Source of the DNA: Pocillopora damicornis
Taxonomy: Eukaryota
Direction: 5' to 3'
NCBI RefSeq assembly: GCF_003704095.1
Contig: NW_020846063.1
Coordinates: 558,001 to 622,000, forward strand
Length of the DNA stretch: 64,000 nucleotides
The position numbers were made by a program, and so were the translations under genes. Shown in pieces: positions 10,466 through 62,307 of this stretch (its first letter is position 1; each line of letters starts with the position of its first letter). The notes beneath the pieces are model-generated. The model worked only from the letters and a program-made list of their open reading frames with translations. It was not told where the DNA came from and did no database searches.

Positions 10466-10618
10466 CCTGGGCTCAGTTGCGTTAAGGGCGGATAACGCCA
10501 TCCAACGAATAAATCGCTATCCAGCGGATAAGTGATAGAAAAACGTATATCGTTATTCACCGGATAGAGATTTATCCAGTGGATAGCGTTATCCGATCTT
10601 CGAACAACCGGGGCCTGG
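10466..10618. mobile_element. Palindromic MITE-like element with internal (g)gatagcg/tatcc repeats
   Basis: cctgggctcagttg...ggataacgccatcc ... ggatagcgttatcc...gaacaaccggggcctgg forms an imperfect full-length hairpin. Confidence 0.65.
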
Positions 10619-11907
10619 AGAACGGATGCTAAGGAGATTATCGTCATTAGGATGCAGACGCCGCTTTTACCTAACGTTTCTCAAGTACCATATCAAGTAA
10701 GCTAGGTCAACACAGTTTGCGTTATTTTTTATATCGTACGAATGTATGTTTAACTTGATAAACAATGTTAAACATTAGTCCAGTGAGCTGGAAAAAGGAT
10801 GAGGGACTGATAAGCCAATTATGAACAAGGCTCCTTAAAGATTGGAAAGATATAAACGGGATGCCAGAAGACGCTCTTGATAAACTTGGCCTTCGTATTT
10901 TATGATACTCAGCATGCGATTTTTCTCACTTTATTTGGATACATTTAATTTGAAATTGAAATAAAGTTTATGAGGTTAATTACTTTTATCGGCTTCTGTT
11001 TTTGCTGCTTTGGTGTGTTCCCTCTTCAAATTTCTTGGTACTCCGTTTATGGTGGTGCTTCATGATTCTTGGTTTTCGTGACTTGTGAGCGGAGCATTCC
11101 CCCCCCCCCTCCCCTTCTCCGACATTCCCTAATGAAGCAGGCCGTAAGGTGTCATTACATCAGAAGCAAAGGAATCTTCCCAAGTCCTCTACGCTCTCGG
11201 ATATTCCCTTCCATTGAGAATCATTGCGGCTGCGAGACTTCATAGCCTTCTATGTTTTAAAGATAAAGTATACTCCTGCATCAAGGTGTGAGCATGATTT
11301 CCCAGCAAAGAGGAGAGATCCCATACTAGCGTCTTGTGGCATTTCGAAGCATGTCAGGTTGTTTTATAAATGATTATTACTGTCATTAAAAACCGTCACT
11401 TTATTTTGGCACAGAGGAGAAACAAGCATTATTNNNNNNNNNNCCCCCATCACTTTCAAAGTAGCGCTCGTGCTCTACTGACCAGCCCTGTTATCTAACC
11501 AATAATTCCTCTATACATCACCTTTCAGCAACTTGGTTTGACGGGTTTGAAAAAGTATTCATAATACTCCGAACATTTATAATCGATTTGTATATCTGAG
11601 CTTCCCTCAACATTACTTTCCATCTGGCTTAGGAAATTTCCCAACCTCTGCGTGGTATTTTGTCGGATTTCTTCCCAACCTTTTAGGCAGCAAAACCAAC
11701 GCAAGGAGCACAATGCAGACAAATAAACAGACAAGAAGGTCACGTGATCCAATTTTACTCCTGGTGCGTAAATTCTAAGAACTCAACTAATGACCTCGCT
11801 GACAGGAAGTTGTCTGACCACCCCGCTACAGCTCCAGTCAGCCCTGACGCCGTGAGCCATGTCGATTTCAACTCGGCCGCATTGAGTCAGCGCGGAACTC
11901 ATCAGCA

Positions 11908-14900
11908 ATGGCGGAAAAAGCGAAAACAAGTTCGCTTCGGCTTCTTGTAGCGCTAGCTCTGGTGTTGTTACTCGTGTATTGCGTGTCACTGAGTGCCTTC
12001 GTCGTTTATTTGATGCGAGATTACAACGAGTTGAGACATTACGTCCAAGATTTGCGGGGTAGAGTTGTTTTATTGGAGAAGGGAACAGTTAACGCTTCTA
12101 AGACGACTGTGCCGCCCTCAAGCACCCAAGACCAGCGTGAAAACAAGGACAAAAGACCTCAGGTAATACAACAAGTCCAAAATAATCGACGATTACGTCC
12201 TACGCAATCAGATATTTTAATTCATGTCATCGATAATACTTAGTGCGCGACGAGATGTCTCTTTCCACAAAACCAGCCTTGTTGACAACTGATGCAAATT
12301 TGGAACAAAAGGTCATCCTTGATTGCGTGTTGAAGATAAATCTGCATACATCCATTACTCCTGATCGTTATCTGTCACGTTACCAAAATAAAACCTCCCT
12401 CTAGAGTAAGATGTCACTTTCTGCCGCCTGATAGAAATGATCATTCGAATTCTCCACAATTATCAGTTAAAACGGGGTCATCAATTATCTCCACGCGAAG
12501 GAAAAACGGATATCATGTTGCTCATTGTTGTCTAATACGGAGCTTTACTTTCCTTCCGGATTTTCATGCCAGACAGCATGAAGCTAAAATTCTCGGAAAG
12601 GAAGAGACTTTCACTGCTAATTCATCTTTAAATGCAAATGTATAGTAACACCGACATCATTAGTTAGCCTCCTGTGGCTGGTATTGTGTACAAACACCGC
12701 AAAGTTGATATTTAATCGCTGTTAATGACCCCGGTCTTCAGCAAGTTCAATGATGTTGAGCCAATTTTATCTCCCTGTGTCGGGTTCTTTGTCCATTTTT
12801 CATATAGAAGTTTTCAATCGTGAAAAAAAAAAAAAAAAACTGCTGCATTCCAACTGGAAACATATACGACTCACTCATTCATTCCCATTTCCGTTTTCTC
12901 GTTTTTCTCAGTCATCTTTCTTTTCCCCTTCTTTCGGCTGTTAATTTCGCAGTCAAGAGCATTCTCCTCGCAATTCTATCGCAGCAACCAGTTCTTTTTT
13001 GACCCAAAGAGCAAATCGTTAAAGCTTGCCACACATTCTAGGGTTAGTCTTGGTCAAAGTAGTCACTTTAGAACATCTTAATGAACCACAATTTTAACGA
13101 GATGGTTGTGTTTGACGCTACAAGTAGCTCATGTATCTTCTTATCATTATTAGGGCTCCCGGCTGTCTGTGATTCCACCTGGACAAACAAGAGAGTAGAT
13201 AGATAAATAAACAGGAAAACTTCGCTTTACCTGATAGTTTTATAGCGTTAATTTGTAAAGTGAAATCACAAATTGATCGCTGCTACATCAGGAACCCAAA
13301 TATGTTGGCCGAGATCTTATCCTGCACTGGCCTGTGTCGCTCTACCAGAATACGAGAAACACGCACGCGGGGGAGCCCACCCGCCTGTCATTCTAAATCA
13401 CTTACGGCTAATGAAGCATGTTTATGACGAGCTAAAGGCTCAATAACATCGAACTTTTTAACTTTGTACAGATGACTGAAATTGTTGACATCAAGAACGT
13501 TTTCCATGAGAGGCGCAAAAGAAACTCTCCAAGCGCTTGTGGGAAGGTTATGTGTCCTAGCGGACCCCCCGGCCCTCCAGGACCGTCAGGTAAGGCATCA
13601 TCCAGGTCCAGCTTTTGTCTTTGACCGTATTCTGGAATATAAAACTGGGAATAAACGATCCAAAAGTTCACGCAAAAACATTTGACCGTTCTTTCAGTAT
13701 TATTGATCAATTAGGAAATCTTAATAAGACCGAAAAAAAAAGGAAAACAATATTTTTACATGGTTATATAGGCAAATACCAATTGTAGTGCATCCGTTTA
13801 ATTTTAGCTGTCATTTACTTTTTCGACAAGGATTCCTGCCTGGATATTCTAAAACTAAAACAACCATGATGGTGAAAGATAATGTTTATAAGATAGCGTT
13901 CGGTTCAATTCTATGTCTACGAGGTCTTCAATTTCTTGCCATGAAATTCCAACGGATGGTCAGATTAACTTGTCTGTCTGTGTTTCATTATCAGGTGCCA
14001 AGGGAAGAAGAGGAAAAAAAGGACAACAAGGTTATTTTGTGCCTCAGGCACCGATAATTGTAAATGCTAATATGGGGCACACTTGTAAATGCCAAGGGAG
14101 GGGGGATAAGGAGAGGAATAAGTTTAAATGCGAAGGAGGGGAGGGGGGGATAATTGTTAATACGAAAGAGGGATAATCGTATGATTTATAACAAATTTGC
14201 ACCACACGAAGCTCAAAATCCATCAACTCACGTTCATTTTAAAATTAAAGAATTTCAAGCTTTTGCTCAGTGCCAACATTTGACTGGTTCAGTCGAGAAA
14301 ATAAAGAGTGCGAAATCAAAAATCGCAAAAATCTGATTGTTCGTGTTGTTTTAGATTTCTGTTTTCATTGGCTAAGAAAAAGATACGATTGAGAGCAAAA
14401 ACTGGAGCGACTTTTAAATAACTGTCCTTGTTGGAAGCCAATCAGGATTACTATTGATATCCAGTTGTACGTAATAAAAAAACCTAATCTATTTTCATTT
14501 CAATTTGAAGGTCCCATCGGTCAAAAAGGACCAGCAGGTCCACAGGGTTCCCAGGGACCCTACGGGCCACCAGGTCCTTCAGGCGAAGTAGGTCCACCTG
14601 GGCCAAAGGGAGACCCAGGAGAATTGGGTAAGTCACACTTCGTACATGATACAAGCTCAGACATTAGGGACGGCTGTACAAGCAAATTACATGAGTGCAG
14701 GCTCACCCTATTACTTTTTTTGTGTGTGTAGGAGAGAGAGGACCCCCAGGACTCATGGTAGGAATCTTGCTCAAATTTTTGTTTGTTGTAAACCTTGCAT
14801 CAACAGCATTCTGTTCAAATTAATTCGATTCAAAATATATGTCAAAGTGAGACTCGTTTTTGACTTTTCTTTTGAGTTTCTCGTAACTCGTGTTTTTTTT

Positions 14901-16205
14901 TTTTTTTTTTTCCCTTTTCTTCTGTTTTTCTCACAAGTTGAACTGTAACAACACCATCATCAACATGTTTCTCTCTTTTCCAGATGCGAGAGAGTGCTCA
15001 CTTGGTTGGCGACGGAAAAAGAGTACATCATGCTGGTTAGTTAAGTCTCGTGACCGTGGGTCAATTTTCTCCTTGATCTCCGCAAGCGAAATACAGTTTG
15101 AAACTGCTAAACGCGCTCCGCACTCATGCAGCGAATAAGTATTATTGTTGTAATAATCTGCTTCGTATGGCACAGTATGACGTTAGTAATTTTGCTATAC
15201 CTGGTGTGCCATACACTCATTCCAGCGCGTGCGCCTCAAGCTCACCCTGCTCAGCCAGCTTCCGCGCTGGCTCAGCTAATAAAAAAGGCCTATGGGAGGG
15301 TCTCAATGGGGTGATGGCTTTTACGGCTATCGGTTAAAATTTTGGCCAATTTCCGGCTAACGGTTAACACCTCTCCATTGTTTCCACCAGACATATTTTT
15401 TACGGTTAACTTTTTTTACGACTAACGGTTAAAATTTGTCAATTTTTACGTCTAACGGCTAAATATTTTGGCCGTTTTACGGCTAACGGTTAACCCCATT
15501 GAGACCCTCCTATGGCCATCGATGGTCTGGCTCACAATAGAGCTCTATGTATAGCTCAGTGTTAAGCATCGGAGGGCGTCATCTAAAGATCAGGGGGTCG
15601 ATTTCTCGTGGATGACCCAGATTTTCCGTTATCCAACGCTCGTGACAATACGAATAATATTCGTTTTATATCAGGAACAGTTGTTATGAGAAATGCCATT
15701 TTGATAACACACCACTACCCGGTCAGGGTTCGAATTCGTACCTCTCGATTTGATGCCCTCGACGTATTAACTCTTAGGCCACCATGCACGTCTCTACACA
15801 ATCAAAATTTAACTTGTGGATTGTTTATAAATGTGTTAACTTTGTTGGGTAGGCACCGTTCATCGTTGGAAGGAAGGCCACGTCAATGGAAGTATCTTGT
15901 TCAGACGACATGTGGGTCACCTGGTGATCGGTCGTTCTGGAATGTACTATGTTTACAGCCAGATGTATTACTACGATTGCACCAGCTACTCAATGAACCA
16001 CTACACTGTTCTAAATGACCACAAAATCCTCGGGAGCGTCTCAAGCACAGTGAATTGCTCGAGAAAGTACAACACCAACTTCCAGGGAGGCGTTTTTCAT
16101 CTGAATCGAGGCGACATTCTTAAAGTGGAAGTGTACAGGAGTAAGATTTACTTCATGGCGGCTCCTTATAGTTACTTTGGAATGTTCATGTTGTATCCTG
16201 ACTAA
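11908..16205 (+). CDS. TNF-superfamily ligand 1, EDA-like (type II TM, coiled coil, furin site, collagen, THD); exons 11908-12162, 13472-13589, 13995-14030, 14511-14627, 14732-14757, 14984-15035, 15853-16205
   Basis: [26 protein letters not shown]; furin site ERRKR; CGKVMC; Gly-X-Y exons including basic [10 protein letters not shown]; strand [10 protein letters not shown]; THD motifs [40 protein letters not shown] and SYFGMFML. All exons splice in frame. Confidence 0.9.
15296..15509. mobile_element. MITE with 16-bp perfect TIRs and a 6-bp target-site duplication (CTATGG)
   Basis: TIRs are gagggtctcaatgggg and ccccattgagaccctc; ctatgg flanks at 15290-15295 and 15510-15515; internal tttacggctaacggttaa repeats. 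Confidence 0.8.
15550..15665 (+). mobile_element. Degenerate tRNA-derived SINE-like fragment
   Basis: A-box-like tagctcagtgttaagcatcgg and B-box-like ggtcgatttc, followed by a cgctcgtgacaa tail; no intact cloverleaf. Confidence 0.45.
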
Positions 16206-17938: not shown

Positions 17939-20900
17939 ATGGAGAAACGCGATAGCTCGCGTGCTCGTCGTAGCATTCTGACTTTGTTTGTGGTTCTCAT
18001 CCTGGCGATTTTTGTCATCCTTGTTACGGTTGTTATTGCGACTCTGTACCGCGTTACGCTATTGCAATCTGAGAGAATTCAATCGCTAGAAGTAGTTATT
18101 GTCAAACTGACTACTCGTATTCACAAGTTGGAGGCAAGTTTCGCCGCCCGGAAGATAGATGACAAATTTTTGGGCGAAACTAACGCGGAGACAGAGGAAA
18201 CGACGGAGAAGGAGAAACGTCCGGGTAATAAGGTCTGTTTGAATCTTACAAAGTACTTTGTAGCTCGTTGTCCAAATTTATGCATATCCAATTGTGTGGG
18301 TGAACATAAGTTGTTTAAACGTTCTTATCCGCGTCGTTGTTTTCCTTTGCAGCAAATGAGCTCCCATCTTCCTCAAACAAGAGGCAGACGACAATTTTAC
18401 GGTTATGAAGTAAAAAACGACGGTAGGTGTCGAAGATACTCGCATAATTATGCTTAGGGTTAGTCGTTCATTGTTTTTTACAATGTGTAATGAATGTTGA
18501 AAGCCATATTACATTCGACTATGAATAAACATTGCACACTAAACTGCACCGGACTCAAAATGATTACTTACGCAAAGTAAAACAAAAAGATTTCTGAGAT
18601 GCTTGTCTTTTTTGGGGAGCGTTTCGACCCTCGCCTAAAACTCTACCCCCAGTTCACTGAAAAACGACCAATAACGATTTATGAACAAAAAGGGCATCAT
18701 GTTTTAAGACAAAATTAACAAACAAAATTAGAAGAGGAACTGACTGCCATGAAATCGAAAAAAGATAATGATAATAATAAAGCAGAGCTTATTCACTCCT
18801 TTGAGAACAACACTGGGAGGTAAAAGTCTTGAAAATATCTTTTGTCATGTTAATCATCAAATCTGGGCTGATATCAATTCATTGAACTTTGCCCAGCTTC
18901 ACTTCCGCATGTTTTCTTCACTGATTGGTTTTCCCATGTAAGTTTTGCATCAGATGATTATCCTTTTGGCTATACAATGACTTCGTCTCCATTTTTTTTG
19001 CGTTAGTTCTTAATCTTCCTCATTCATTAATAATAAAACAAAATCAGCAAGCCTAATACTGCGAACATGCTTTTATTCTAAGTTGACTTATCGGCCAACA
19101 GTTGGAAAAGCAATATGGGAGACAAAAGGAAGGGATGTCGAATCCGGTCAAAGAAAGTCTAATTGAGCTGAAAATTTTAGAGGACCAACGCGGCTCAGTA
19201 TCATCGTAGTTATTTAACCGATTCATTTTACTGTTCTGAGTGTGAAATTTCCATGCAGTTAAATTGGACTTGCTCTGAAAAACTTGGGATACGTGACATA
19301 AACGAAAACACACCAAACGAAATTTGGCGATCATTTACAAACAAAAATGAATATAAGTCCTTTTATCATGTTTTAAATTTTCAAAACTTTAAGGTAAACT
19401 CAATCGCAGAGGTTGATTTCACTTGATGAGCCTAAATCTGTCGCTTGGTTTTTTTTCCTCAGGTATTAAATGTAAAAAAGGTAAGTGTGCAACGTTATCG
19501 ATATATCGATGTTCCTTGGTCTTACGACTCAAGAAATCATACCCTATTCATGTGCTATAAAACTATGATTGAAAAATTATTTTGTCTTCTTTATAGGCTG
19601 CAAAGGCAAGAAAGGTAAGCTGCAATTATGTCATTTTACCTTTAATTAAAATACTCAACTAGCCTTGTGCAAAAACGTTTGGTTTGGTGTGTCGTACTTT
19701 GTTTAGAGATGTTTTTTAGTCCACATTCATCAAGTAGTCGGTGAACATCGTCAAAAGTAATTTTTCCCGTAACGATCTAAATCACTTACCCTCCATGGGT
19801 TATTTATCCGACACCAAATGGAGGTAAAACCTGAATACAATTAGGAACATTTACATCCAAATACCACGATTAGGCAAAAACCTGATTTACGTATGATCCT
19901 TTTAGGAGAAAAGGGCGACCCGGGCCCTCCCGGACCGACTGGGACGAATGGAACCAATGGCGGAACAGGTTATTTTATCTCTTGTTCTACCGTTAAAACC
20001 TCAAATTCGTTTCATCAACTTTTTTCCTGTACCCCTGACATTATCCTAATTATTCACAAATTTTTATTTCTTTTAAAGTGGTTCTTCGTAATTAACATAG
20101 TAGGTTTCTAAAATTGGTGTTGTTCCACTCACCTAATGAAACAAAAATCCGGAGTCATCTTTAAAAGCCTTGACACTATGCACGTGCTACAAACAAAAAC
20201 AAAATTGAATCAGTTACCTTTTTTTTTTTTTCGGGCAGGTCCCCAGGGCCCACGCGGAGCAAACGGTCTTAAGGGTGACATGGGACCTAAAGGAGAGCAA
20301 GGTCCGCCAGGTATGTTTGGATTCAGCTGCGTATCCAGTGTTTAGAACTGTTTTTCGCCCATTCTGAAAGTTACCTCGAGTACTACCTTGATGAAATTGA
20401 TATTTTGCCAGTTTACTCCATCTCTTGTCTCACTATCCGTGCGAAATCTGGGATGAAGTTTCGGGAAATAGACGAGTCACATCTCACATCATTGGATTCA
20501 ATTCATTAATAAGTGATTATAGCAATGGTGAGAAAAAGGTGAATTTTTACGCAGCAAAGAATACAAACAGATAGGAAAAAATGCCTTTGGAGACACGATA
20601 TTTAGCACCATAAAATAAACTAGACTGAAATGAATCTGCATTATCTTTCCTTAGGACCTCCCGGCCCACCCGGAGTAATGGTAAGTGTGCAAACTAGTTA
20701 CCAGGTTCTGTCTTCTTCCCGCTTCCTGGAGGAAGAGAGGGGGAAGGAAAAGAGAGACCCTGGGAGCTAGGTTGGCAAGCGAGACCGTTTTTTGCTTTGT
20801 AGCCTCGCTTCCAGGGATTGTAAATACTGGAAGATGATGCTCTACAAATGTTCTGGGTAATCTGCTTTTCCCTCGTCCTACAATTTCGACAAGCATAACA

Positions 20901-21106
20901 GAAGCATAAACTGTAGCTTCCTTTCTACCTATGAAGTTAATAAGGAGAGAATAGGCTCATGTCCTTACAGATACTTGCATTCGTGATAAAAAACCAACGA
21001 TGATCAATAAATGATAAGCATGTATATCTTGACAGTGACAATGGGTCAATACTAGAATCATTTACTTTCCTAATTTAAGGCAGGAGAAAGCATCCACCTG
21101 GTTGGA
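17939..21106 (+). CDS. TNF-superfamily ligand 2, collagen-containing; terminal THD exon not visible (gap); exons 17939-18224, 19463-19480, 19597-19614, 19906-19968, 20239-20310, 20655-20680, 21080->21106
   Basis: TM ILTLFVVLILAIFVILVTVVIATLY plus coiled coil; 18-nt exons GIKCKK and GCKGKK; collagen exons; 26-nt GPPGPPGVM exon; THD strand A AGESIHLVG runs into the N gap. Confidence 0.82.
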
Positions 21107-22712
21107 NNNNNNNNNNNNNNNNNNNNNNNNNNNNNNNNNNNNNNNNNNNNNNNNNNNNNNNNNNNNNNNNNNNNNNNNNNNNNNNNNNNNNNNNNNNNNN
21201 NNNNNNAGGTGGATCACAATTGTCTAGTACAAAGGACAATACCTATTACACAAATGTGCTTAACTTTCGTCGAGCGTCGGCGAGTGAGTGTCAAAACAAT
21301 TGGGCACTCCTTTTACCAGTCGAGTTTTTGAGTTGTTTTGTATCATTGTTGAATATTTAGTAGAAAACATACACCACAGTTTTCTTACAATTTTATCCAA
21401 GTCGCAGGCAATAAATTGCACAACCACGAAGTATATACTGAGTAGAGTTTGAGGCTATCAGAATATTCCACTTACATAGTGAAAGTCGCTTTACACATTA
21501 CAATTACAACCTCATTTGCAATCTTGAATTCCTCACAAGGTTTGAGTGCTCATGTTTGACGTCCTGCCCACCGATATACTCACTGTAAATACATTACGGT
21601 AAATAGTGAATAAAGTCTCTACCTTTTTCTCTTTATTGACTATCAAATGTGATTTTTATATTTTTTTCTCGGGGGTGGGGGTGGGGGATTCACGAAGAGG
21701 AGAATTTACCTACGCAAGAGTTATACTACGACGCGACATGATTGATTGGAGTCAGTTGAAATTTGTTTTTATTGTAATTGATTGCTTTCGGATCAAGTAC
21801 CTTAGATAAATGTGAGCTATTTTAGAGGCCTTTTTTGGGTTTCTAATTTGTTTTGTCGCGTCGTACATCAACAATAATTGTTTCGGAAGTGGCTGAAACG
21901 CACTTTAGATACTGAAGCTGTATGTTTCCAATAATAAACATATCAGTTGCGTTATTAGCCGATTGTTGCCGTTTCGTTCACAAGTTGATAGGAATGTTCA
22001 GTTGGAAACCTAGCGAGAACTAAGATATTTGGCTTTGGTTCACAATTGTTATGTCTCTTGACCGTTACTACCACATGAGCGTGAATAACAGAGGTTTCTG
22101 CAGTCCTAAGTTGGGTGGTGAAAGCTTTTGTAGACTTTGGCCACAGTCCTGTCCTAATCCTATTGCAAATATAATACTGGCATTTTGTCAAATGCAATAA
22201 GAATAAAATTGATGAATCAACTGGCAATCAAGCTTGAAATTCAACGCCATATCAACAGGCAAACAAAGGCTTTGCACTTGCATTTGAAACTGACAGAAGC
22301 ATTTTCAGCGGGAAGTTGTAGCTGCGTTGATTATTTTACTAGTTTACATAATCTCATAATTCCTAGAATTGGACTCGAATACAAAGGATCTAGGTTCAAA
22401 TAGACACGTTTTTTGCTACTCTCTCCTAAAGCAAGGATTAAGTTTCAGTATTATTAGGCTATTGTAATAGTTTTGCGAAGTTGGTTGACAGAGCAACGTG
22501 CGGACTTTGAAAGTTACCCCAAAAGTTTCAGTATTTTTAGTGCTGTCAATCACTTTCAACACATGCGCAATATTGCTTTGATTTTCCCAGAAATTTAGAT
22601 TAAGCTCAACCAAGCGTAGAAAGACAGAGTTCAGCTCTTCACGGATTGTGCATCGCTGAAACAAAATCCCGAGCCGAGCACTTGAATTTGCTTGGCAAAT
22701 GCACGTTCCATC

Positions 22713-25700
22713 ATGGACCAACAGAAAAAATCAAATGCGCGTCGCGTTTTCCTCAACATTGCGATTGTTTTAGCAGTGTTATACATCATAATTGTGACTT
22801 TTTTTGTGGTTCATCAACACCAGTTGGCAGTCCTGCAATCCGACATCGTGCGGCGACTTGAAGCTCGTGTTGAAAAGTTGGAAAACAGCGGCTTCACAGC
22901 TCAGAAAACGGACAGAAATTCTGTGGGTGAGGCCGATCGTGTTATGGAGGGGAAATCTGCGCGTTTAAAAACGAAGGTTAGAGAGCCGGCTTGACGGTGC
23001 GCAATTAGTAAAGTCTAAAGCGTATTGTTTACTTAAATGTTGGCGTGAATTGTGATGTTGCTCATCGCTGTTCTGAGAATTGATACATTCGTGAAGCCAA
23101 ATGAAACAGAATGACTTTTCGTTGTTACAGCTTGCCGTTCCTGATTTTCCTCGTGGTAGAGACAAAAGGCAGTTTGAGGGCTACTGCCCGTGTTTGCAAG
23201 GTAATCTTTGAGTGCTAGAAATACATATTTTACATATTTAGCTATGATTACACAAAGAGGCGCATTTAGAACAACGATTGGTCTGAAAAATACAAGGAGA
23301 TTCACGCAAAGAACAGTTTCGTCGTGCCTGTTTATGAAAGAATTCCAAAATTTCCGCAGAACAATGAAGGATAAAGAAATCGACCACAGTTTGATCTCTA
23401 GACTTTGTTTACTTCCGCGTTCAGTGCCTGAAAGTCGCTTGGTCATGAACTAATTAGCTTTTACGAGCCCCCACAAAAAAAATACACTTTCTTAGTATTT
23501 AAGCATGTTGAAATTGGACTCTTGGTGACGAGAAAAACAACTGTTTATAAGCATTCTATATCGGTAACCTACTTGTGGTAAACTTCAATTTTGTGACCTT
23601 TTGATCCTAAATCAGGCGTGAAACTATGTCGTTGATAGATTTCAGCATCAAAGTTTTCCCTGGGAAATTTTGTTTGGTGGAAATGTTTTGTTGCTGAAGC
23701 AATTTAAATGATTTGCTCAAATTTAAGAACCTCACAGCCGGCAGGGCTTCATCTCAATCAAGACGTTGGCGTGACAATTGCCTCTTGAAGTTTTGGCAAA
23801 CTTCCACCAAAATAACATGTCTCGTCAAGTATGTCTGAGAAGGTGATAACGCGAGCGAATGAATTACAAACGAGTTTTTAAAAATGTCATCAATGACAGC
23901 TCAACAAACTAGGAAACATTATGTTCAATTGACCTTTAAAGCATCATTTTACATTTCTCGGTGTAAAACCCGGAGAAAATATTGACTCACCGGCGATAAT
24001 AGTGCGTCAAAGATAACAAAAGACCTTACAATTTAATTTACATTTTATACAATTTGCATACATTGATAATTTGACCTTGAGAATTGTTCAGGTTCGGCTC
24101 AACAGGACACATCACATTGTTTTCAATTCATCACCTCTTCCAATTCAATGGACTATCCTAAAAAGTCAGAAATAAGTTTTCAACCCCTATTCCATCGTGA
24201 TAGACATGTGCCAGACAAATGCCAATTGTTTTCGTGACTGATGGATGACCCTGCCGATTCCTAATGAAATATTGTATGAGACAAGGGACTCTGGCAAAAT
24301 GGGAGCGTCGGAAGATGAGAATATCATTCCACAGTGACTTCAATATTTTTGCCCTTTAAGTTTGAAGCAGTTTTTGAAAACAAGCGATAATTACCGAGCA
24401 GAGTTAGTTTTTCTGAATAAAGATTAGGAATAAACGACATATTGCCGGGACAAATCACATGTAAAGAAAATAGCTCATGGTTTTAAATGAAGTGGAGTTT
24501 CGACCAAATTCAGAGTGTACCATTTTCTATATTGTGATTTTATAATGCACACAAAAAGATAAACTTAGAAAAAGTAGGAGCACCTAAACATTCTACAATT
24601 GGCACATGCTTGTCCTGTAGTTTTTTTGCAATATTATTTTCCCTTTTTCAGGCCCTAAAGGAGATGCTGGACCTCCAGGTAAGAGCTGCATCACATCCCT
24701 TTTTCTCTCCCGTCATTAAAAAAAAAAAACGCTTGAAACGTTGCGGCTTAATTTGTTACACCGTATTTGTTTCTAGCTCTTCCCGTTAATGTGTAGGTAA
24801 TAACATGAACCCGCAGGGCAAGGGCAATGTGTAGTCTTTGAAAAATTCATCAGTGCTTAGTACACCAAATTGCAAGCGAAATAATGTTATTACTTTTTAA
24901 TAATGTAAATGAAAAAAACAACACACACATTGATCATATAGTTCATGATCATGTTTTAACTGTTCCATGATAGAAATAGATTTTTGCCCTTGTCTGTATT
25001 TTGTCATCATTACCTGAGAAAACCGATCCGTTTGGTCTCGTTATTGAATACCCAAACAAAGAACATTTCCGTATAGTGTTTTAAATGTACGCTATTAATT
25101 TTATCATTTGCCGACAGTGATTTTTTTCAACATAGTCTGAGAAACGTGTTGAGAATTTCCCTTCTCAAGATCATTGTTAAACGATAGTACAATAATGCAA
25201 TTATTTTTGTCAAGTATGATAGTTTCTTCAACTGAATAAATCGACAGTTAACTTTTTTTCTCGTTTATCATAGGTCGGCGAGGAAAGAAAGGTAAAAAAG
25301 GTTAGTTTAGTGAAAAGTGATGACGATCAAGTAAAAGTTGCCTCAGTTGTCATCCCAGCATCCTCCCCTCTTCCCCTATGAAATGATTCACGTGCAATGC
25401 ATTACCGAGTAACAGAAGTGCGGTGCGGTTAACCGATTGGGTAATCACCAAACGGCACCTTTTTCGTAGGGCACAAGGGAGACCAAGGACCAGCTGGTCC
25501 CGTGGGTCCTAAGGGAGAACCAGGAACAAATGGGGAGCCTACTAAGGGGCAGCAAGGTGAGTCTGTCGTAAAAGTTCAAGAAAATTATGATAACGATACA
25601 GTTTGATGGAAATAAACAGACTGGCTGATGCAAGACTAACTTCATACACTTAGTGCATCACAGGAGTCAGGAGATGGTCAGAGGGTAAAGAGAAAAATAC

Positions 25701-28464
25701 ATCACCGATGGAATACGTCAAAACTTTGCTATATGTTTAGGTAACAGTATGCAAAATGCAATTGGCAAAATGGCATTTCCCTTAATGAAGTTTCTAAACA
25801 TATTTTGGGACATACTATTGTACGTATTTGAGTGATTGAGCCAAAAGTACCAAATCAATTATCTGAATAAGTTAATCAAATATGTATTTTTTTTTACTAA
25901 ATTTACTCAATGCGACCTAGTCTAAATGGTTGCTTTTTAGGAACAATCAGAGGTTTACTTACTGCGATTGCACTTCTTTCATTTATTTATGCTTTTCCAC
26001 TTTAATTCACATTCCATCCACTGGTGATGCAGTTAGGACACCATCTAACTGTCACCATCTGTCCCTCTTGAGCCTGAAACACAAGTTTGAAACATTACAT
26101 TGTCAAGAACATGTTTCATATATTATTTCATACCACAGGTGACCCAGGGCCCAGAGGTCCCAAAGGATTGAATGGAATGAATGGTACCCAAGGTCCAGCG
26201 GGTCTTCCTGGTACCCCTGGAGTTAAAGGAGACAGGGGAGAAGTAGGCATTCGAGGGCCTAAAGGGGACCCAGGTTGGTACTGTAGTGAACTGTTTCTTC
26301 AATTGTAGGTTACAGGATTTGTGCCGTTTTGTGGATTGCCTCTTTGAAACTAACACACTGGCTCAATGGGGCTACGTAATGACGAGGTAGGACATTAGAA
26401 GACCTTGTTCCAGCCCTGCAAGGCGTCCCTGATTGTGTTCACGGTTGTGACATTTTACATTCAAAGTTTTCTTTTTCAACCCAAAAGTGTAAATAAACAC
26501 TAGCAAACTGCTAGGGAAACGTAACGAAATATTTAGGAGTGACCTGTGGTGGATCTGCATTTATTCAGGAAGAGAAGCAATATTTCACGTTACTTCACGC
26601 TATAAAAATCAGAATGCACCTCAGCTACGTGGGCCTTCTGGTGCTGTTGTGAATAGTCTCCGTGAATGTAGTGCATTAGTTTTCTCCCTTCATCCGGGGT
26701 CTAATCGGTGGTGGGTGGAGAGGAAACATGTATTTCTTTATCTAAGGCATTCAGAGTTTTTTCTTTTTTCTGTTTCTAACAGGACCACCAGGAGCTTCGG
26801 TGAGTGTGCTGAGGATTTCAAGGAGCTACGTCATTGTATTTTGAGTAATTTTAGACATAGTGAATTTTCTCAAAGTACAGTTCAATTTTAAATAAATAGT
26901 TTGCCAAGGAAGAAAAACACTAAAGTGAGGTAAAAAATCAGCCAAAAACAGCTATTTGTATTTTGATTTGAATATTTTCTATTTGACTTTCTTAATAACC
27001 TCGCAACAATGAATAAATACTTCGTTATGTTGGATACTTGAAAATTGAACACTCTTCGGATTGGGGAGGACAAGTGGAGAACCCAACCAACCACGTCGTC
27101 AAAGAACGGTGAAATATACTGGTAGATCCCCNNNNNNNNNNNNNNNNNNNNNNNNNNNNNNNNNNNNNNNNNNNNNNNNNNNNNNNNNNNNNNNNNNNNN
27201 NNNNNNNNNNNNNNNNNNNNNNNNNNNNNNNAATCTACCATTCCGTAGCACTTGAGTCTGTTTGTGACTTGGTAGGCGACTTAGGCCCTTCGTTCTTTCA
27301 GACTGAGATTTCCCTTTTGAGTAAAAAAAGTCTGAAGAAGGGACCGTACTCATTTATGGTAGAATTTTATCATTTACCAGATAGCAAAAGGGTTTACATG
27401 AACTTTACGTAGATCGCTTCAAGTCACGCTTTTTTTAAAGATTTGTTTGAAGTTTAGGCCGATACACACGAGGAAATTACCCTGTATTTGATATCTTTCC
27501 ACGGAATGCAAATTTAGTTTTTTGTAGCTGTCTGATAGGCCTCAATGCAGAGATACTTTTCCGTGTTCCAGGCTTAAAGTTGAACATGTTTTGTCCACTT
27601 GTCACGTGGTCTTGATGCCGCCGGATCTGTGCCTCTTGCTGGTTCCTCAGACACGCCTTTTTCAACTTTGCAAGATTTGTATTGAACTTGTTCCCAAAGG
27701 CAAAAGGACATTGTATTTATCCAGGTTACTATTAGAACAATACCACGTGATCAAATGTTACACAGTAGTATGGGACAGAGAGAATACATAACCATTGACA
27801 GATACGTTCATTGATCAAATATATGACTAACTGATACAAGTTTCGTAGTACGCGATTCGTTTAAAAATCGTGATACCGATTCAGTTATTACAATGGTATT
27901 TAGGGAGGCCTTTCAAAGCATGTAAGAGGGAGTAAATTACACATCAATCGATAATGAGTGAAAATTTTCTACTGAAGTAACATAGTAGTGAAAATTATCA
28001 TCCCAATTGGTTTACTGGTTTCTCGAACATTCATGATCTCAATTTCTGATCACAAAATTTAGCAGTAATTTTTCCATCAAGATTGCGTTTATTTCATTTC
28101 AGTAACAAGACGCACGGTGAGGAACTGGCAATTGAAATACAGATCAGGCAGACTTCAGTTCGATCAAGGCTTCATTCGAATACAAATTGCTGGATTTTAT
28201 TTCGTGTACTCGCAGATGTTTTACCACGACGGTTTACCATACCAAGTCAGCCATCAATTGTTCGTCAACTCGGAAAAATTCATGGAAAGCACATCTGCCG
28301 TTATTAGCGAGGACCGAAAATATAACACAAACTACAACGGCGGTGTGGTGTTTCTAAACAGCACTGACACCGTTTCAATCCAAACTCCCTTTTCAAATCA
28401 CTATTTCATGAATCCCAGTTCGAGTTATTTTGGCGCATTTTTACTCCATGCTACTGTTCCTTGA
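22713..28464 (+). CDS. TNF-superfamily ligand 3, collagen-containing; exons 22713-22926 (or -22976), 24652-24678, 25274-25300, 25470-25556, 26139-26273, 26783-26799, [strand-A exon not found, probably in the gap at 27132-27230], 28103-28464
   Basis: [24 protein letters not shown] plus coiled coil; collagen exons including GRRGKKGKK; THD exon [35 protein letters not shown]...[20 protein letters not shown]...SSYFGAFLL. The exon 1 donor and the linkage across the gap are uncertain. Confidence 0.8.
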
Positions 28465-30585
28465 CCCACGGATAATGTTTTCTCGGTACAGACAGCTACA
28501 ATTCCATCATGTTTGGGCAGCGTCAATACCCTTATAGGCAACATTTATATCTTTCTGAAATTTTCTGTGACGAGAAACGTAGAAAGTTTGAAGAAACTGT
28601 CTACATTCAGCTGGTCACGACTCAGTGTGGTTTTCGCTAATTTTGATTGATCTTTTTGTAACCTATCTGCGAGATATCGTAGTTACACCTAAAGGAGAAA
28701 CTTCACGTGTATAATACTAAAGATTCAAGATTAAAGACCACTCGTCTATAACTGTAACACTGTTCCTTGTCATGTCAAATCCATAGAATTTTTAGGAAAT
28801 TTGTTGGTGTGTAGCTGTTTTTCAACCGGTGCAAACGTTATTCCTTTTAAGGCTTGATTGCTGCGTTCTCTAACGCAGAAATTGTCTTAGTTAATAGTTC
28901 ATTCCTGAATTTTTCGTTAACACAACACTTAACGGCCTATTACGAATGTTTCGTGGACTCGCCTTGTCTCAAAAGATGGTGTAAGTTAGGTTCTTGTCAG
29001 TATAGCTTACATAAAGTCCTTTGATATTCAAAGGTATTTGTATTATATTGCTTGCATTTTAGTATCACTTATTTTTTTTCAAGGAAGGAAATTGACTGCT
29101 ATGCAAGTTCACTTTTGATATTGTTGATTGGACGACTATACCCAGTATTGTTTCGGTACCTTTGATTTGGCTCGTTGGATTTTTAGAACTTATGGAGGTG
29201 TGCCAATCTCTCAATAGTGCTAGGTGCGATACCATGTTTTACATCATTTTGCTTAATACGTTTCTTAAACGGAAGAAAGCCCAGCCTATAGTTTTAAACT
29301 GATAAGCGAAAGTAAGAAAAGGATGAACATCACCAAAAGGAATGCAAATGGTAAAGTTTCAAGAACATGAACCCAGTTTATAACTAACAAAAATGAAACT
29401 TAGGCAAATTCAGTCAAGATGCGCAAGTATCTTACATGAATTTCACCTTACCATTGTGTTAAAATACTGAGTCAAATATTTTTTAAGTTTTTCGGTAATC
29501 ATTGTTTTGGTTATATGTTTTTATTAAATATTTGCTGGAATCGAAATAAAGTAAGCTTTTACTTACGTTCTGCCTACATGAATTTATAACATATACCCCT
29601 TCCACCTTCTTGCATACAATAAACTAAGCTCATGCGCTTCAAATTCAAGTTATATAAATCCTAGGAGAGATGCAAAATAGTGCGATGTATATCTCTGTGG
29701 TACTGCCGTGTGTGTACATTTTTTTTAATTTTGTAGTTTCAGTTGATGAAACAATTATCACGCGCCTTTTCAAAGTTCATTATATTTATTTCAAGAGAGG
29801 GATTTCCCCCGAGAAGTAGTGCTTAAGGCTGGTGTCTGATTGGCACTTGAGGCCAGACCAGTTGACTCCCAAAATCTAAGCATAAATTCTCCAAACTGTG
29901 TGCCATACATTTCCCACAATCTTAGATCTGAGAGTTTGGAGCTAAATCTGGCAATATCCCCTTGTTGCCATCTTTCTTTTTCTCTCAATACCTTTCTGTA
30001 CGAAAGTATCGATATCGTAAGGAGAAATCAATTTTCGATCATTCCAGGAACACAAAATAAGACTAGCGTCTCCTGTCTTCACTTTCTAATTTGGAGTTAA
30101 GAAGAAAACCAGCAGCTATTTGCATTTTCTTCGTAATCTTTCGAGTTTAACCATCATCGATAACAGAATGTGTCACATAATCATTTATTTTCCTTTTGCT
30201 TATATATATGTGCGTTTTCTGTTTTTTTTATCACAAGTTTCCCATGAGTGACCTATGTTTAACGCGATATTCTTGCCAAGATAAACTTTGTATATTCCAA
30301 TTATGTTTTGGTCAGCCTGAAGCAAAGTAACATTTCATTGAGAGAAAATTTGTAACTAATCCAGCAGAACTGGAGACATATTCGTTGTTACCTGATAATT
30401 ATTTCAAGTTTTGCTACCGCAAGGAATAAGGTTTCTTCTTTTTGCATAAAAATTTTAACCATCTGTTGACGTTCTACAAACTAGCGGAGTAAGGGAACAA
30501 AGAGAAGAGCGGGAAGAGGGAGGGGAGACACAGTAGACTTGTGACGTCATTGTGCCAAAATTTACTGTGATTGTTTTTTACACAG

Positions 30586-30947
30586 CAAGTATTCTTATAA
30601 CCAACTGGGTTGTACGTAATAAGTTGGGCTATATTCACTACGACAGAGGCTTCATTACAGTCGTCAAAGCCGGACATTACTTCATATACAGCCAAATGTA
30701 TTATCACGATGCTCGGACTAATGTGATGGCTCACCACACATACATCAACGATGAAAGGGTTTTGGAAAGTGTGGGGAGCGCTCTTACCGACAAGACGAAG
30801 TTTAGTACCAAATACCACGGTGGAATGTTTCTGCTCAAAGCCAACGACACCATCTCTGTTCGTATACCGTACGTTCGACATTACAGCATGAAATCTGGTG
30901 CCAGTTTCTTTGGAGCGTTCTTGTTGTATTCTGGTGAATCGAACTGA
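30586..30947 (+). CDS. Orphan terminal TNF-homology-domain exon (intact)
   Basis: Acceptor ttttttacacag, phase 1; ITNWVVRNKLGYIHYDRGFITVVKAGHYFIYSQMYY...FSTKYHGGMFLLKANDTISVRIP...ASFFGAFLL*. No TM or collagen exons were found in the gap-free interval 28465-30585. Confidence 0.85.
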
Positions 30948-32933
30948 TTTAACTGAAGGATAGGATGTCCCGAATGACGATAGACTTCCTCAAAGCTTTC
31001 ATTACTTTATCATACAGATATTAACATTGCTGCTGATCTGTGGGCATTTTCACTTATTATGTGTTTAGTGTCTTGTCTTTGTATTTGCTAGTGTCCAGAT
31101 TGGTGGAAAATGGATTAAAATTTGTGTTCTCAGTCAAATAATTGGAATGTATATCACAATACAGTCACAAACTACCATAATACTTAAAAATTCCGTCCAA
31201 CCTGCCACTAATCCTACTTCAAATCAGCTCTTTATTTAAAAGCTTACCATGTTCCGTGTTATACAACAATTCCTTTTGTGGATTTTCTGACCATTTCCTA
31301 AAAAAAAATATTTTTAAAAAACCTGCTTTCAATACAGTATCAACGTGTGAGTGAGGTAAAATAACTGAAACTACTAGATAAGTCTACGGTCTAATTTCTG
31401 CTTTCAGCGGTCCATTGGTATCTAAGCTTGGAATACTCGATTTCATTCACCAATCGTACATATAGCTGTTACAAAGGCGTCGTGCACAAAAATGACTAGG
31501 CCTCATTTGGTCGAAAGTTTAGGTCAGGGGCCTAAGCGCAGAATGAACTATTTGATATTGTTGTTGTTGAAGCTCTCATTCGAGAACGTAGCGAATTTTG
31601 TGTATGATTCAGGTGTAGGAGGTCACTCTATGTCACGCCCGTATCAATATTGTGTGACTTATGTCACAATCTTCCCATTGGCTTATCAGCAATGCGTTCA
31701 TCCTGTTTTATCGCCGGCTCTTATACATTCTTGTATACATTATTCGATTTTTTTCTTTATTGTCATTATTTTTGTATTTTGCGGTATTCCGGCTTGTTCA
31801 GGTCTTCCTGCCTGTTTCAGTGTTCCTACTGGTTTTGGTTTTCAGGCTTGTCTGGGTCTTCTGTCGTGTTCCGGTATTCCGGCGTGATTTTGAAACACTC
31901 ATATCTCATGAGGGATTTTGTATTTGTTTGCTAGCTAATTGTTGTTACAACAACAACGTCAAACACAAGAGTGCTGTGTTCTTATCGACCAATTGCTGTC
32001 CTTGTGGAATGATGGTGCAAAATTGAGCCTGAAAATTTGATCGTGGAAACTTTTCAGCGCGCGAAACAAACCGTTTTCAAAGGGCTTACCGTGGAATGCG
32101 GATGTTTTAATTTTGCAGTGAATTCATGAACAAATAAATTCCCTCATCTTCTGTAACATTAGCAAAACTCTCTCTCCTAACTTGAATCAACTTTAAAAGA
32201 AGACTTCCACCGTATTGGAAGCACCGCCATTCCCCAGTTCTAGCAGATAATATTCGGTTCTAAACCAATAGCGCCCGAGCGAAAATATTTGATAGATTTT
32301 AAGACTCAAGATTATGCGATCGTAAACTTTTCTCATAAACTTCTAATCTTTTAGATTAGGTTTTCTGAGATTTTGACCGATATTGAAAAGCTTTCAGCGT
32401 AAATCACGCAAAAATCATTCACACTAAGACTTTGCTTATAATACCCCTATTTCATCTGAAACATGTCCTGATCGATGGGACTACCCATATTTGGCCAGAG
32501 GGGCAAATGTTGACGGAAATAGTAATGCGTTTCATATACAATTGGGGACACCGATGTGTCAGGCTCATTTTGAGAGCAGCCTGGGTTATGGTAAATAAAA
32601 GTAAGTTAACGTTGACACAATGAGAATCTATTTCGATGGCACAAACGGACATTCTTCCAGGTTTTAAAGGACCCATGTTATCATCACCACACCCAGCCAT
32701 CATAAGTCAATCCTTCCTTCCTTCTTTTGTGAACCGACACTGAAATAGAACTCTTAAAAAAATTGATATTAATCCTCCAAGCGAGGAAGACGAACAAATT
32801 TCCTTATCTGTGGAATACGATATGGCCTTTCATTGAAACTATCTATGGAAACAGCAGGGTATATAACTTGTGTAGTACGGCTACCGCTCATTCACTTCAT
32901 CTACCCGCCCTGGTCAGATTATCGCAGCTCAGA

Positions 32934-34605
32934 ATGGAGAATCCACAGAATACGAAGAGGGGCTCTTCTCGTCAGACACCAGCTCGGTTGATTTATTTCT
33001 GTGTTTTCTTGTCAATCGTTGTTTGTCTTTCTTTTGCATTAAGTTTCTACTCTTTTAAGCGCGTGTTGTCGCTCGATAAAGAATTCCATTCGATAAACGA
33101 GCTGAAAGTCACGGGAGAAGACCACTATTCCAGCTCGGATAGTAAGGTGACTGAGGGAAAGGTAAGTGAATTGTTGATAAGAGCTTGAAACCAAAAATTC
33201 CTCAATTCACTGATCTGAGGGTTTCCTAAAAGAAAATAAGTTTGGAAAAACTGTACGCAGTATCTGAAGTCTGGACGATCACAAGTATGAGAGAGAACAT
33301 GAAGGTGATAAAATTAGATTTGTAGAGAACTGCGTCTTAAAAGTTGCTACGTGTTGGTAATAAAGGGATTTGTCGGAGGCCAAGATATACAGGGGAAACT
33401 GTTGAAATTATTACCAAAGAATTATCGTCGAGTTTTATTTCCTGTTCTAGATGGGTTTTAATTTTTTATCTGAATTGTTTCACGATGATTTTGCGATTGT
33501 CCTCAATATAAGAGACATAACATAATTTTAGTTCAACAAGATAAATCACACATAAACAAGGAAAACCAATCAGACTGCACAAGGATGGTTACGGTTACAG
33601 AATTGAGATGAGGTGGACATGTAAATGAATGATTATCGAGCTTCCTATCGTAATGAAGCAATTTTTATCATATCTACAGAAGAAAATCATGTAGTTATTC
33701 CCATTCAAGTCTACTATGAACTTATTGTTTGTGTCGAAACGCAGTTTCTTCTCCATGCCTACTGAGTCTTTGCTCTTTTTGATATCTTTGTCAGGAGGTG
33801 AATAAACACGGTAGCAGGAAACGTCGCAACTCTACCTCTTACAAGGTAAACGATTTAAATCCAAATTTCGCTTAAAAATAGTTTTGTTCATCATTTCTGT
33901 GGCAAGATATGTTTGTTTTCTTTTCGTAGACTCCCGATAACATCCTGCTCTATGGCAATGGAGATACAAGTATCCTGCCAGGTAAGTTATGTCAAATAAA
34001 CTATATCTCGATAAATATTGTTAGGTGTACTCAACTTTTAGTCAAGAAAAGGGGAAAATTCATGCTAATATATGGTAAAGACAAACCAGCCTTTCCCCAA
34101 ATGTTACTAGGAAACCTTACGAATAGGAAATCCTTCTTAATTCCCTTAATGATTTGTGCCTGTCTCAAAAGGATTTATCACATTCAGGTTTAATCATGAA
34201 GACAGCAATAGAGACTACTATCATACCCATTACGTAATTTTTTTTGTAATTCAAGAAACGCATGCCATCACGAAATGGACCGAGGCAAACAAAAATGGAC
34301 GCAACATAGTTTATCATTCCAGTGTAGGCCTCGTCGAGGTGATGAGAGATGGACTGTACTTCATTTACAGCCAAATGTGCTTTTCTGGAAACAGAAATCA
34401 GGACATGGCCGGCCATCGCACTTTTATCAACTTCGAAGAAAAGATGACAACCGTGATTGACCGACAAAACACAACAGTGGCCTGTCGCTATCATGGCGGC
34501 GCTTTTTATCTGAATGCGAATGACAAAATCGCCGTGAAGCCAACAGCGACTGGTCAATACTACATGTCAGAAAAGGGCTCATTTCTCGGAGTCTTCCTTA
34601 TCTAG
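32934..34605 (+). CDS. TNF-superfamily ligand 4 (no collagen); exons 32934-33161, 33795-33845, 33930-33981, 34256-34605
   Basis: MENPQNTKRG...TM LIYFCVFLSIVVCLSFALSFYSF; furin site SRKRR; 52-nt strand-A exon TPDNILLYGNG; THD GLVEVMRDGLYFIYSQMCF...RYHGGAFYLNANDKIAV...GSFLGVFLI*. Confidence 0.88.
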
Positions 34606-61980: not shown

Positions 61981-62307
61981 GCGTATGCTACCGTTACCAA
62001 AAGCGTTACCGTTATCTTATCGTGTGACACAGTTAGCCGTGATTTCTCGGAAGCTTGTAAACTCTCGAAACCAAGCTAAACTTTACTATCCCGACCCTTG
62101 TTATAACGAACTGGCAGCCTGTCCAGTGAGCGCATTGAACATGAATAATAAAATTAAACGAATCAGCTGTTGAATTTGAGAACAATAGGCCATTGATTGA
62201 ATCACTGTCACGTGACAAGGTGGACTTTGCTAGAAAAATTCTTCAATCAATGTTGACGTCCCAGTTGGTGTTTCTAGGAAATCACTGATACCTCACAGAC
62301 GACAAAC

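What the first reader, a model, noticed from the sequence alone, without database searches (positions are those of the whole stretch)
17939..30947. Two TNF 'heads' followed by two TNF 'tails': alternative or nested THD exons
The order is head 2 (TM-collagen-strand A, ending in a gap), head 3 (TM-collagen), THD exon 28103-28464, THD exon 30586-30947. Both THD exons are intact, clearly divergent and have phase-1 acceptors. No TM or collagen exons were found in the gap-free 2.1 kb between them. Possible explanations: mutually exclusive terminal exons giving one gene two receptor-binding domains; gene 3 nested in the last intron of gene 2; or combinatorial head-tail splicing. Any of these would be unusual for TNF ligands, since EDA-A1/A2 switch receptor through only a 2-aa splice difference.
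Basis: partly seen in the sequence, partly recalled or inferred. Interest (0 to 1): 0.7.

Follow-up and report, generated by a model that had tools for sequence, protein, structure and literature searches.

The report
Coral TNF gene with swappable tail
The odd 'two heads, two tails' order in this coral TNF cytokine cluster comes mostly from two assembly gaps and a likely deletion, but behind it one gene carries a second, long-conserved receptor-binding exon that is likely spliced in as an alternative ending in some corals and would give one gene two different ligands.

Summary
This is a Pocillopora-type tandem cluster of ectodysplasin-like TNF ligands. Gene 2 has its own THD exon, placed in gap 21107-21206 by orthologues and RNA contigs. 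Gene 3's strand-A exon and its main THD exon (T3) lie in gap 27132-27231. Exon 30586 belongs to neither gene: RNA contigs join it to its own strand-A exon, and in other corals it ends a separate two-THD ligand (gene X). That gene's front part is missing here, most likely through a deletion starting at 30351/30352. What remains interesting is exon 28103 (TA). It lies after T3 with no head of its own in 8 of 11 TA-bearing loci of other corals, is only 43% identical to T3, has dN/dS 0.09-0.25, and ends gene-3 models in Orbicella and Porites. It is likely an alternative last exon that swaps almost the whole receptor-binding domain. Against that: two Pocillopora RNA runs show TA only inside T3's long 3' UTR, with no splice junction, and its stop codon is polymorphic, so use in this genus is unproven.

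The parts
17939..21106 (+). Gene 2 head: exons 17939-18232 (TM), 18353-18422 (RGRR furin-like site), 19463-19480, 19597-19614, 19906-19968, 20239-20310, 20655-20680 (collagen), 21080-21106 (strand-A exon, cut by the gap)
   Evidence: GT/AG ends, open frame, 195 of 196 residues identical to XP_058958311; first junctions in RNA contigs
21107..21206 (.). Assembly gap; inferred to hold the rest of gene 2's strand-A exon and its own THD exon (T2)
   Evidence: Head-2 orthologues P0014, P0042, P0011, P0008 end in T2; RNA contigs carry 543 and 521 letters before 21207 (table 8); T2 precedes head 3 in gap-free loci L009, L011, L012, L016, L025
21207..21620 (+). Likely 3' UTR of gene 2, with AATAAA at 21609
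   Evidence: RNA contig X15 record 4 ends at 21620; signal position
22713..26799 (+). Gene 3 head: exons 22713-22976 (TM), 23131-23200 (RDKR furin-like site), 24652-24678, 25274-25300, 25470-25556, 26139-26273, 26783-26799 (collagen)
   Evidence: 207 of 209 residues identical to P0015; six GT..AG joints in RNA contigs (table 5)
27132..27231 (.). Assembly gap; inferred to hold gene 3's strand-A exon and its main THD exon T3
   Evidence: RNA contig X16 goes on behind 26799 into strand-A codons and 255 or more off-window letters (table 7); P0015, P0059, P0061-63, P0065-69 = head 3 + strand A + T3; order strand A, T3, TA in P0058 and L012
27232..29565 (+). Long unspliced RNA contig, read as the 3' UTR of the T3 message, running over exon TA; AATAAA at 29545
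   Evidence: X15 27232-29565, X16 27232-29484, X18 27232-29556
28103..28464 (+). THD exon TA (all strands after strand A); likely alternative last exon of gene 3
   Evidence: Pfam TNF; clade 100/99 and dN/dS 0.09-0.25; ends XP_020603222.1, CAH3195754.1 and XP_073256505.1 after the gene-3 strand-A exon; no junction contig in X15 or X16
29757..30149 (.). 393-nt insertion polymorphism (absent from one RNA contig)
   Evidence: Joint 29756 to 30150 in X16
30351..30352 (.). Left breakpoint of a likely deletion that removes the head, collagen, first THD, linker and strand-A' exons of gene X
   Evidence: DNA run X7 leaves the window at 30351 with 154 unlike letters; X1 spans it in one contig with 0 differences; X17 record 19 also stops matching at 30351 with 150 letters left over
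30586..30947 (+). THD exon TB: last exon (second THD) of gene X, orphaned in this haplotype; RNA contigs run on to about 31276
   Evidence: Junction contigs in X15 and X16 join it to an upstream exon ending GDNTILRNP; Stylophora XP_022792743, XP_022792748, PFX34031 and spliced locus L004 read THD-X, linker, strand A', TB in frame

Best explanation
The stretch holds three ectodysplasin-like TNF ligand genes in tandem: gene 2 with its own THD exon likely in the first gap, gene 3 whose single strand-A exon is followed by two THD exons (T3, likely in the second gap, and TA at 28103) that are likely used as alternative last exons, and the last exon (30586) of a separate two-THD gene whose front is likely deleted in this haplotype. 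Mechanism for gene 3: the THD is split by a phase-1 intron after strand A. By default the strand-A donor splices to the near acceptor (T3), and the message runs through TA as 3' UTR to the poly(A) signal at 29545 (shown by RNA contigs). Skipping to the far acceptor at 28103 keeps the TM, furin site, collagen stalk and strand A and swaps about 120 residues of THD for a version 43% identical to T3 (shown as gene models in Orbicella and Porites; inferred for Pocillopora). The two products are predicted to bind different TNF receptors or to form mixed trimers (inferred from how far they differ; untested).
For: Gene 2: orthologues end in T2; T2 is absent from the sequenced window; RNA contigs come out of the gap with 543 and 521 letters; 5 loci show T2 just before head 3. 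Gene 3: T3 follows strand A in RNA-derived and RefSeq proteins. 8 of the 11 TA-bearing loci among 50 hold T3 upstream with no head, collagen or strand-A hit between; the other 3 have only 94-932 nt upstream. The 7 intervals measured are 692-1173 nt and N-free. The phase-1 acceptor sits at the same codon in all TA copies printed. TA forms one clade (100/99, 8 rows) with dN/dS 0.086-0.252 in 8 pairs, close to T3 (0.07-0.14, 3 pairs). Strand A + TA ends XP_020603222.1 (isoform X3), XP_073256505.1 (isoform X2) and CAH3195754.1. The Orbicella form is predicted to fold as a full THD, top match EDA-A1 at E 9.7e-12. Exon 30586: own upstream exon in 2 of 2 deep RNA runs; THD-X ends in a splice donor, not a stop (L038, L024); linker and strand-A' exons precede TB (L002, L042, L043); L004 has them joined in frame; breakpoint at 30351 in X7 and X17, spanned by X1.
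Against: No contig joins strand A to 28103 in X15 or X16. The long contigs of all four RNA runs cross 28103 unbroken, and hid 13 joints and 123 loose ends, so X17 and X18 are not fully read. No pocilloporid full-length protein ending in TA came up; all Stylophora isoforms X1-X3 and the P. verrucosa model end in T3. In 19 of 26 anchored TA open frames from pocilloporid-type contigs the stop codon is lost, and E57V and D88A recur (30 entries of two clusters examined, 4 without anchor, biased towards long frames): TA may be relaxing in this genus. The RNA support behind the Orbicella and Porites models was not seen. None of the 11 TA loci is a spliced form. The loci are few species, not 11 independent cases. 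Cross-genus dS is above 0.9, so those dN/dS values are rough. Neither gap was read through directly. The 154 unlike letters of X7 were not shown to be gene X, and X1 may be the source of the window. T3 copies do not form one supported clade.
Confidence: 0.74

Rival explanations
1. Same anatomy, but in Pocillopora TA is a fading duplicate that rides along in the 3' UTR of the T3 message and is rarely or never spliced in; the switch works only in other coral families.
For: No junction in two deep RNA runs; no pocilloporid full-length TA protein; stop-loss in 19 of 26 anchored frames and recurring substitutions; longer end branch for the window's TA (0.25).
Against: The window's TA is intact with a good acceptor and dN/dS 0.12-0.14 against other genera; contigs drop rare variants, so absence is weak.
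Confidence: 0.4
2. The join between 30351 and 30586 is an assembly error, not a deletion: gene X is intact in this individual and was collapsed or placed elsewhere.
For: The window has 13 gaps; T3 and THD-X are 79% identical and trouble assemblers; other samples express TB from its own upstream exon.
Against: X1 spans the join in one 6403-nt contig with 0 differences and no second path. The join is not at the T3/THD-X repeat, and two other studies leave at the same base.
Confidence: 0.1
3. One reading: 28103 and 30586 are mutually exclusive tails of one gene, or gene 3 is nested in gene 2's last intron, or heads and tails combine freely.
For: Both exons have phase-1 acceptors compatible with any strand-A donor. 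In the deletion haplotype TB lies about 3 kb behind gene 3's donor, so rare read-through splicing is possible.
Against: Gene 2 ends at about 21620 with its own THD. TB is joined to a third strand-A exon, unlike those of genes 2 and 3. The poly(A) signal at 29545 ends the gene-3 message.
Confidence: 0.04
4. TA is the tail of its own small gene with an unrecognised promoter and short first exon between T3 and TA.
For: An AATAAA or ATTAAA lies between T3 and TA in 7 of 7 foreign intervals checked, so T3 can end before TA there.
Against: No strand-A, collagen or head hit in those intervals; models in two genera give TA the gene-3 head; no AATAAA in window 27232-28102.
Confidence: 0.04

Closest known systems
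Ectodysplasin A (EDA, splice forms EDA-A1 / EDA-A2)
   Same: Type II TM, basic furin-like site, collagen stalk and C-terminal THD (definition from passages of PMC9779463); best structural match of the head-3+TA model; one gene, splice forms that differ in the THD.
   Different: EDA-A1/A2 differ by two residues (Glu308, Val309) and bind EDAR versus XEDAR (PMC9779463 passages). Here nearly the whole THD is exchanged through a duplicated last exon, 43% identical. No receptor is known, and orthology to EDA was not tested.
TWE-PRIL (TNFSF12-TNFSF13 read-through)
   Same: One TM head joined to a different receptor-binding THD by splicing within a tandem TNF cluster (passages of PMC6862657).
   Different: APRIL is a full gene with its own head. 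TA has no head of its own in any locus seen, and the swap falls inside the THD, after strand A.
Cnidarian collagen-bearing TNF ligands (HyTNF of Hydra; EDA-like ligands of Acropora and Nematostella)
   Same: TM, collagen and THD architecture in cnidarians (passages of bioRxiv 10.1101/2019.12.13.875351).
   Different: That paper has no occurrence of 'splic'; no alternative THD exon is described in the passages seen.
In-frame multi-THD invertebrate TNF ligands (Hydra A0A8B7E873 and others; Darwinula A0A7R9A6L1)
   Same: Gene X, to which 30586 belongs, carries two THDs in one chain (passages of bioRxiv 10.1101/2024.07.27.603686).
   Different: Gene X has two THDs with a short linker, and here only its last exon remains. 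That preprint has no occurrence of 'isoform' or 'splic'.

Membership tests
TNF ligand superfamily | C-terminal TNF homology domain | tested here: met
   Pfam PF00229 above cut-off for both exons; model matches EDA, APRIL, BAFF, TRAIL
TNF ligand superfamily | Type II topology: one N-terminal transmembrane helix | tested here: met
   Hydrophobic stretch in the first exons of heads 2 and 3 read from sequence; helix 5-73 in the Orbicella model; no dedicated TM predictor was run
TNF ligand superfamily | Trimer formation and binding to a cysteine-rich TNF receptor | not tested
   No complex prediction was run; no receptor partner is known
EDA-like ligands | Collagen repeats between TM and THD | tested here: met
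   Gly-X-Y exons in both heads; longest runs 18-20 triplets in P0015 and P0042
EDA-like ligands | Furin-type site in the stalk | tested here: met
   RGRR (gene 2) and RDKR (gene 3); cleavage itself is inferred
EDA-like ligands | Orthology to vertebrate EDA and signalling through EDAR/XEDAR-type receptors | tested here: inconclusive
   EDA is the top fold match, but APRIL is close (E 1e-10) and leads by sequence; no tree with vertebrate ligands was built
Alternative last exons from exon duplication | Two homologous terminal exons behind one shared donor, same phase, no separate head | tested here: met
   T3 and TA, 43% identical; 8 of 11 TA loci
Alternative last exons from exon duplication | Both junctions present in RNA | tested here: inconclusive
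   Strand A to T3 in Logan-derived proteins; strand A to TA only in NCBI models of Orbicella and Porites, not in X15 or X16
Nested same-strand gene (gene 3 inside gene 2) | Outer gene's last exon lies beyond the inner gene | tested here: not met
   Gene 2 ends at about 21620 with its own THD; 30586 is joined to a different strand-A exon
Read-through fusion of the TWE-PRIL kind | Head of one complete gene spliced to the THD of the next complete gene | tested here: not met
   TA has no head of its own; no head-2 or head-3 junction to 30586 seen

The most novel reading that the evidence does not exclude
Stony corals have kept, across both major lineages, a TNF ligand gene that switches its whole receptor-binding domain by alternative last exons (two in gene 3, three in locus L028), so one promoter, anchor and collagen stalk deliver ligands for different receptors or mixed trimers; Pocillopora in addition segregates a null allele of the neighbouring two-THD ligand.
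Probability: 0.45. Interest if true: 0.7.

Novelty: new variant of a known kind. Interest (0 to 1): 0.5.

Why it matters
Corals have many more TNF receptors than counted ligands. A passage of bioRxiv 10.1101/2024.07.27.603686 finds only one canonical ligand among nine in P. damicornis against 15 or more receptors, and broken models such as XP_027048803 show why counts are unreliable. A conserved whole-domain splice switch would add ligands without adding genes, extend the EDA-A1/A2 principle to a far larger scale, and give a natural pair with the same stalk for mapping ligand-receptor choice in an early-branching animal. The deletion allele would be a natural knock-out of a two-THD ligand. If TA is not spliced in, the finding is mostly a lesson on gaps and a deletion.

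Tried and rejected
No whole genome is held for this window, so the gaps could not be searched elsewhere in the assembly. None of the 50 metagenome loci is the window's species (no blastn hit at 85% or more over 100 nt), so the gaps were not filled directly. tblastn with T2, T3, gene-3 strand A, head X, THD-X and the linker found none of them in the sequenced window. A strand-A scan of 27232-28102 and 28465-30585 scored at shuffle level. A head-3 protein search gave only 3 proteins, all T3-type. The 50%-cluster search found no further full-length TA form. Lack of a junction contig into 28103 is weak evidence, since contigs drop rare variants. The joint 27730-30902 in X17 was set aside as a T3/TB look-alike. 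Joints 20186-25963 and 26072-31247 (CT..AC) were set aside as repeats and not followed up. Nesting and combinatorial splicing were rejected as above. Literature: no paper held 4 of 'TNF superfamily / mutually exclusive / exon duplication / TNF homology domain / invertebrate' or all of 'alternative last exon / tumor necrosis factor / ligand / duplicated exon'; the listings showed no title on coral TNF splicing. The library lacks most subscription papers, and bioRxiv supplements were closed and may list these isoforms. Earlier scan notes held nothing. No complex prediction was run.
Full report
Verdict. One part of the idea survives: gene 3 likely has two alternative THD last exons, but the pair is T3 (in the gap) and 28103, not 28103 and 30586.

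What the window shows. The window holds a tandem cluster of TNF ligand genes on the plus strand. Five THD exons in the sequenced part hit Pfam TNF above its cut-off. Head 2 translates without a stop over 8 exons and is 195 of 196 residues identical to a Pocillopora verrucosa RefSeq protein (one search had one exon start off by one base and gave 179). Head 3 is 207 of 209 identical to P0015 and 209 of 209 to a P. damicornis model that ends by reading into the intron at 26800. The organism is therefore Pocillopora-type (inferred). The two THD exons (TA 28103-28464, TB 30586-30947) are intact, phase 1, and 38% identical. Each lacks strand A, which in these genes sits on a small separate exon. No collagen, strand-A or head exon lies between them.

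Gene 2 is complete. Every full-length head-2 orthologue retrieved (Pocillopora P0014, P0042, P0043; Stylophora P0011; Oculina P0008; Logan P0013) ends in a THD, T2, that is 42% identical to TA and 51% to TB. T2 is not in the sequenced window. RNA contigs come out of gap 21107-21206 carrying 543 and 521 letters and end by 21620, next to an AATAAA at 21609. In five loci of other corals T2 lies just before head 3. This removes the need for nesting.

Gene 3 has a hidden main tail. An RNA contig continues behind 26799 into strand-A codons and 255 or more letters not in the window. Nine full-length Logan proteins listed in its cluster and the P. verrucosa model read head 3, strand A, T3. A merged P. 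meandrina model gives the genomic order T1, T2, head 3, strand A, T3, TA, head X, strand A, THD-X. RNA contigs of three runs from two studies cover 27232 to about 29500-29565 unspliced, over TA, up to an AATAAA at 29545. I read this as the long 3' UTR of the T3 message. By arithmetic, the X1 contig reaches about 676 letters into the gap if collinear, so the gap is larger than its 100 N.

TA as an alternative last exon. Of 50 loci from coral metagenomes, 11 hold TA. Eight of these hold T3 upstream with no head, collagen or strand-A hit between; the other three have under 1 kb upstream. The seven intervals measured are 692-1173 nt without N. L012 shows the whole run gap-free: T2, head 3, collagen, strand A, T3, TA. 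These loci fall into a few groups closest to Orbicella and to Porites proteins, so they are not 11 independent cases. TA copies form one clade (100/99) with dN/dS of 0.086-0.252 over 8 pairs, near T3 and TB; cross-genus dS exceeds 0.9, so those values are rough. Three NCBI models join the gene-3 strand-A exon directly to TA: Orbicella XP_020603222.1 (isoform X3), Porites lutea XP_073256505.1 (isoform X2) and Porites evermanni CAH3195754.1. That RefSeq isoforms usually rest on RNA-seq junctions is recalled, not checked. That Porites and Orbicella belong to the two major stony-coral lineages is also recalled. The Orbicella form is predicted to fold into a complete THD, with the first strand (223-228) from the shared exon; the best match is EDA-A1 (E 9.7e-12, TM 0.81 on the target). 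L028, from another anthozoan-like source, has one strand-A exon followed by three THD exons.

Evidence against use in Pocillopora. Laid narrowly, the two deepest RNA runs show a junction contig at 30586 but none at 28103. No pocilloporid full-length TA protein was found, and Stylophora isoforms X1-X3 all end in T3. Among 30 entries of two clusters of pocilloporid-type TA frames, 26 could be anchored: 19 have lost the stop codon and 7 keep it, and E57V and D88A recur (these clusters favour long frames). TA may be a minor, conditional or fading exon in this genus.

TB belongs to another gene. In X15 and X16 the exon upstream of 30586 ends in GDNTILRNP. This is neither gene 3's strand A (GDGQKIQNP) nor gene 2's, but matches the Stylophora exon before TB (GDGTSLSNP). 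Stylophora models read head X, THD-X, short linker, strand A', TB. In other corals THD-X ends in a splice donor instead of a stop (L038, L024), linker and strand-A' exons precede TB (L002, L042, L043), and L004 has them joined in frame. Gene X is thus a two-THD ligand. Head X follows TA in L034, L035 and P. meandrina but is absent from the window. DNA run X7 matches to 30351 and then carries 154 unlike letters; X17 stops matching at the same base with 150 letters left; X1 spans the join in one contig with no difference. A deletion allele from 30352 into the last intron of gene X explains this best. X1 may be the window's source, and X7's letters were not shown to be gene X, so misassembly is not fully excluded.

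How it likely works. Shown: exon structures, head junctions, the long unspliced contig over TA, the junction into TB from its own exon in other individuals, conservation of T3 followed by TA. Inferred: content of both gaps; competition of two acceptors for one donor in gene 3; furin release of a collagen-THD trimer as in EDA; different receptor choice of the T3 and TA forms; loss of gene X function in this haplotype.

Comparison. EDA has the same architecture, and its two forms differ by two residues and bind different receptors (PMC9779463, passages). TWE-PRIL joins one TNF head to another gene's THD (PMC6862657, passages). Collagen-bearing TNF ligands are known in cnidarians (bioRxiv 10.1101/2019.12.13.875351, passages), and in-frame multi-THD ligands in Hydra and an arthropod (bioRxiv 10.1101/2024.07.27.603686, passages). 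Passages of PMC7674686 and PMC12843592 hold nothing on isoforms. I found no description of alternative THD last exons in five searches; the library is incomplete and bioRxiv supplements were not visible. Rating: new variant of a known kind, interest 0.5.

Noticed in passing
window 30351-30586: Likely deletion allele that removes most of a two-THD TNF ligand gene (gene X); a natural null if real.
   Followed up: partly
L004 2-541; L038 360-725; L042 508-3262; Stylophora P0007, P0021, P0022: Gene X encodes two THDs in one chain, joined by a short linker; seen in pocilloporids and at least one other group.
   Followed up: partly
L028 154-5900: One strand-A exon followed by three divergent THD exons and no other strand-A motif: a larger array of possible alternative tails.
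   Followed up: partly
T3 acceptor (gap 27132-27231; L012 about 10612-10620): Tandem AG acceptors give one-residue variants at the start of T3 (Stylophora X1 versus X2; P. verrucosa model versus Logan proteins), a small-scale switch reminiscent of EDA-A1/A2.
   Followed up: no
window 28462-28464: The stop codon of TA is lost in many pocilloporid-type alleles, giving C-terminal extensions.
   Followed up: partly
window 29757-30149: 393-nt insertion polymorphism, absent from one RNA contig of X16; possibly a small mobile element.
   Followed up: no
window 32934-34605 and 37054-39794: Two further TNF ligand genes, near-identical to each other in their first and THD exons and without collagen runs: a recent duplicate pair.
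   Followed up: no
P0026, P0064: Open frames that start like THD-X and end like T3: assembly chimeras or gene conversion between the two 79%-identical exons.
   Followed up: no
window 11908-16205: Gene 1 of the cluster, complete, with the same split between strand-A exon and THD exon; the order gene 1, gene 2, gene 3 recurs in L025.
   Followed up: partly
window 4026-4304 (-) and 4474-8757 (+): Exons resembling a RING-box protein and a phospholipid scramblase flank the cluster (labels recalled, not tested).
   Followed up: no
window 44510-44734, 50251-50475, 59165-59389, 59779-60003; 62278-62577: Four similar short frames in both orientations (a repeated gene family), and a TM-bearing first exon at 62278 like the N-terminus of TNF protein P0078.
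   Followed up: no
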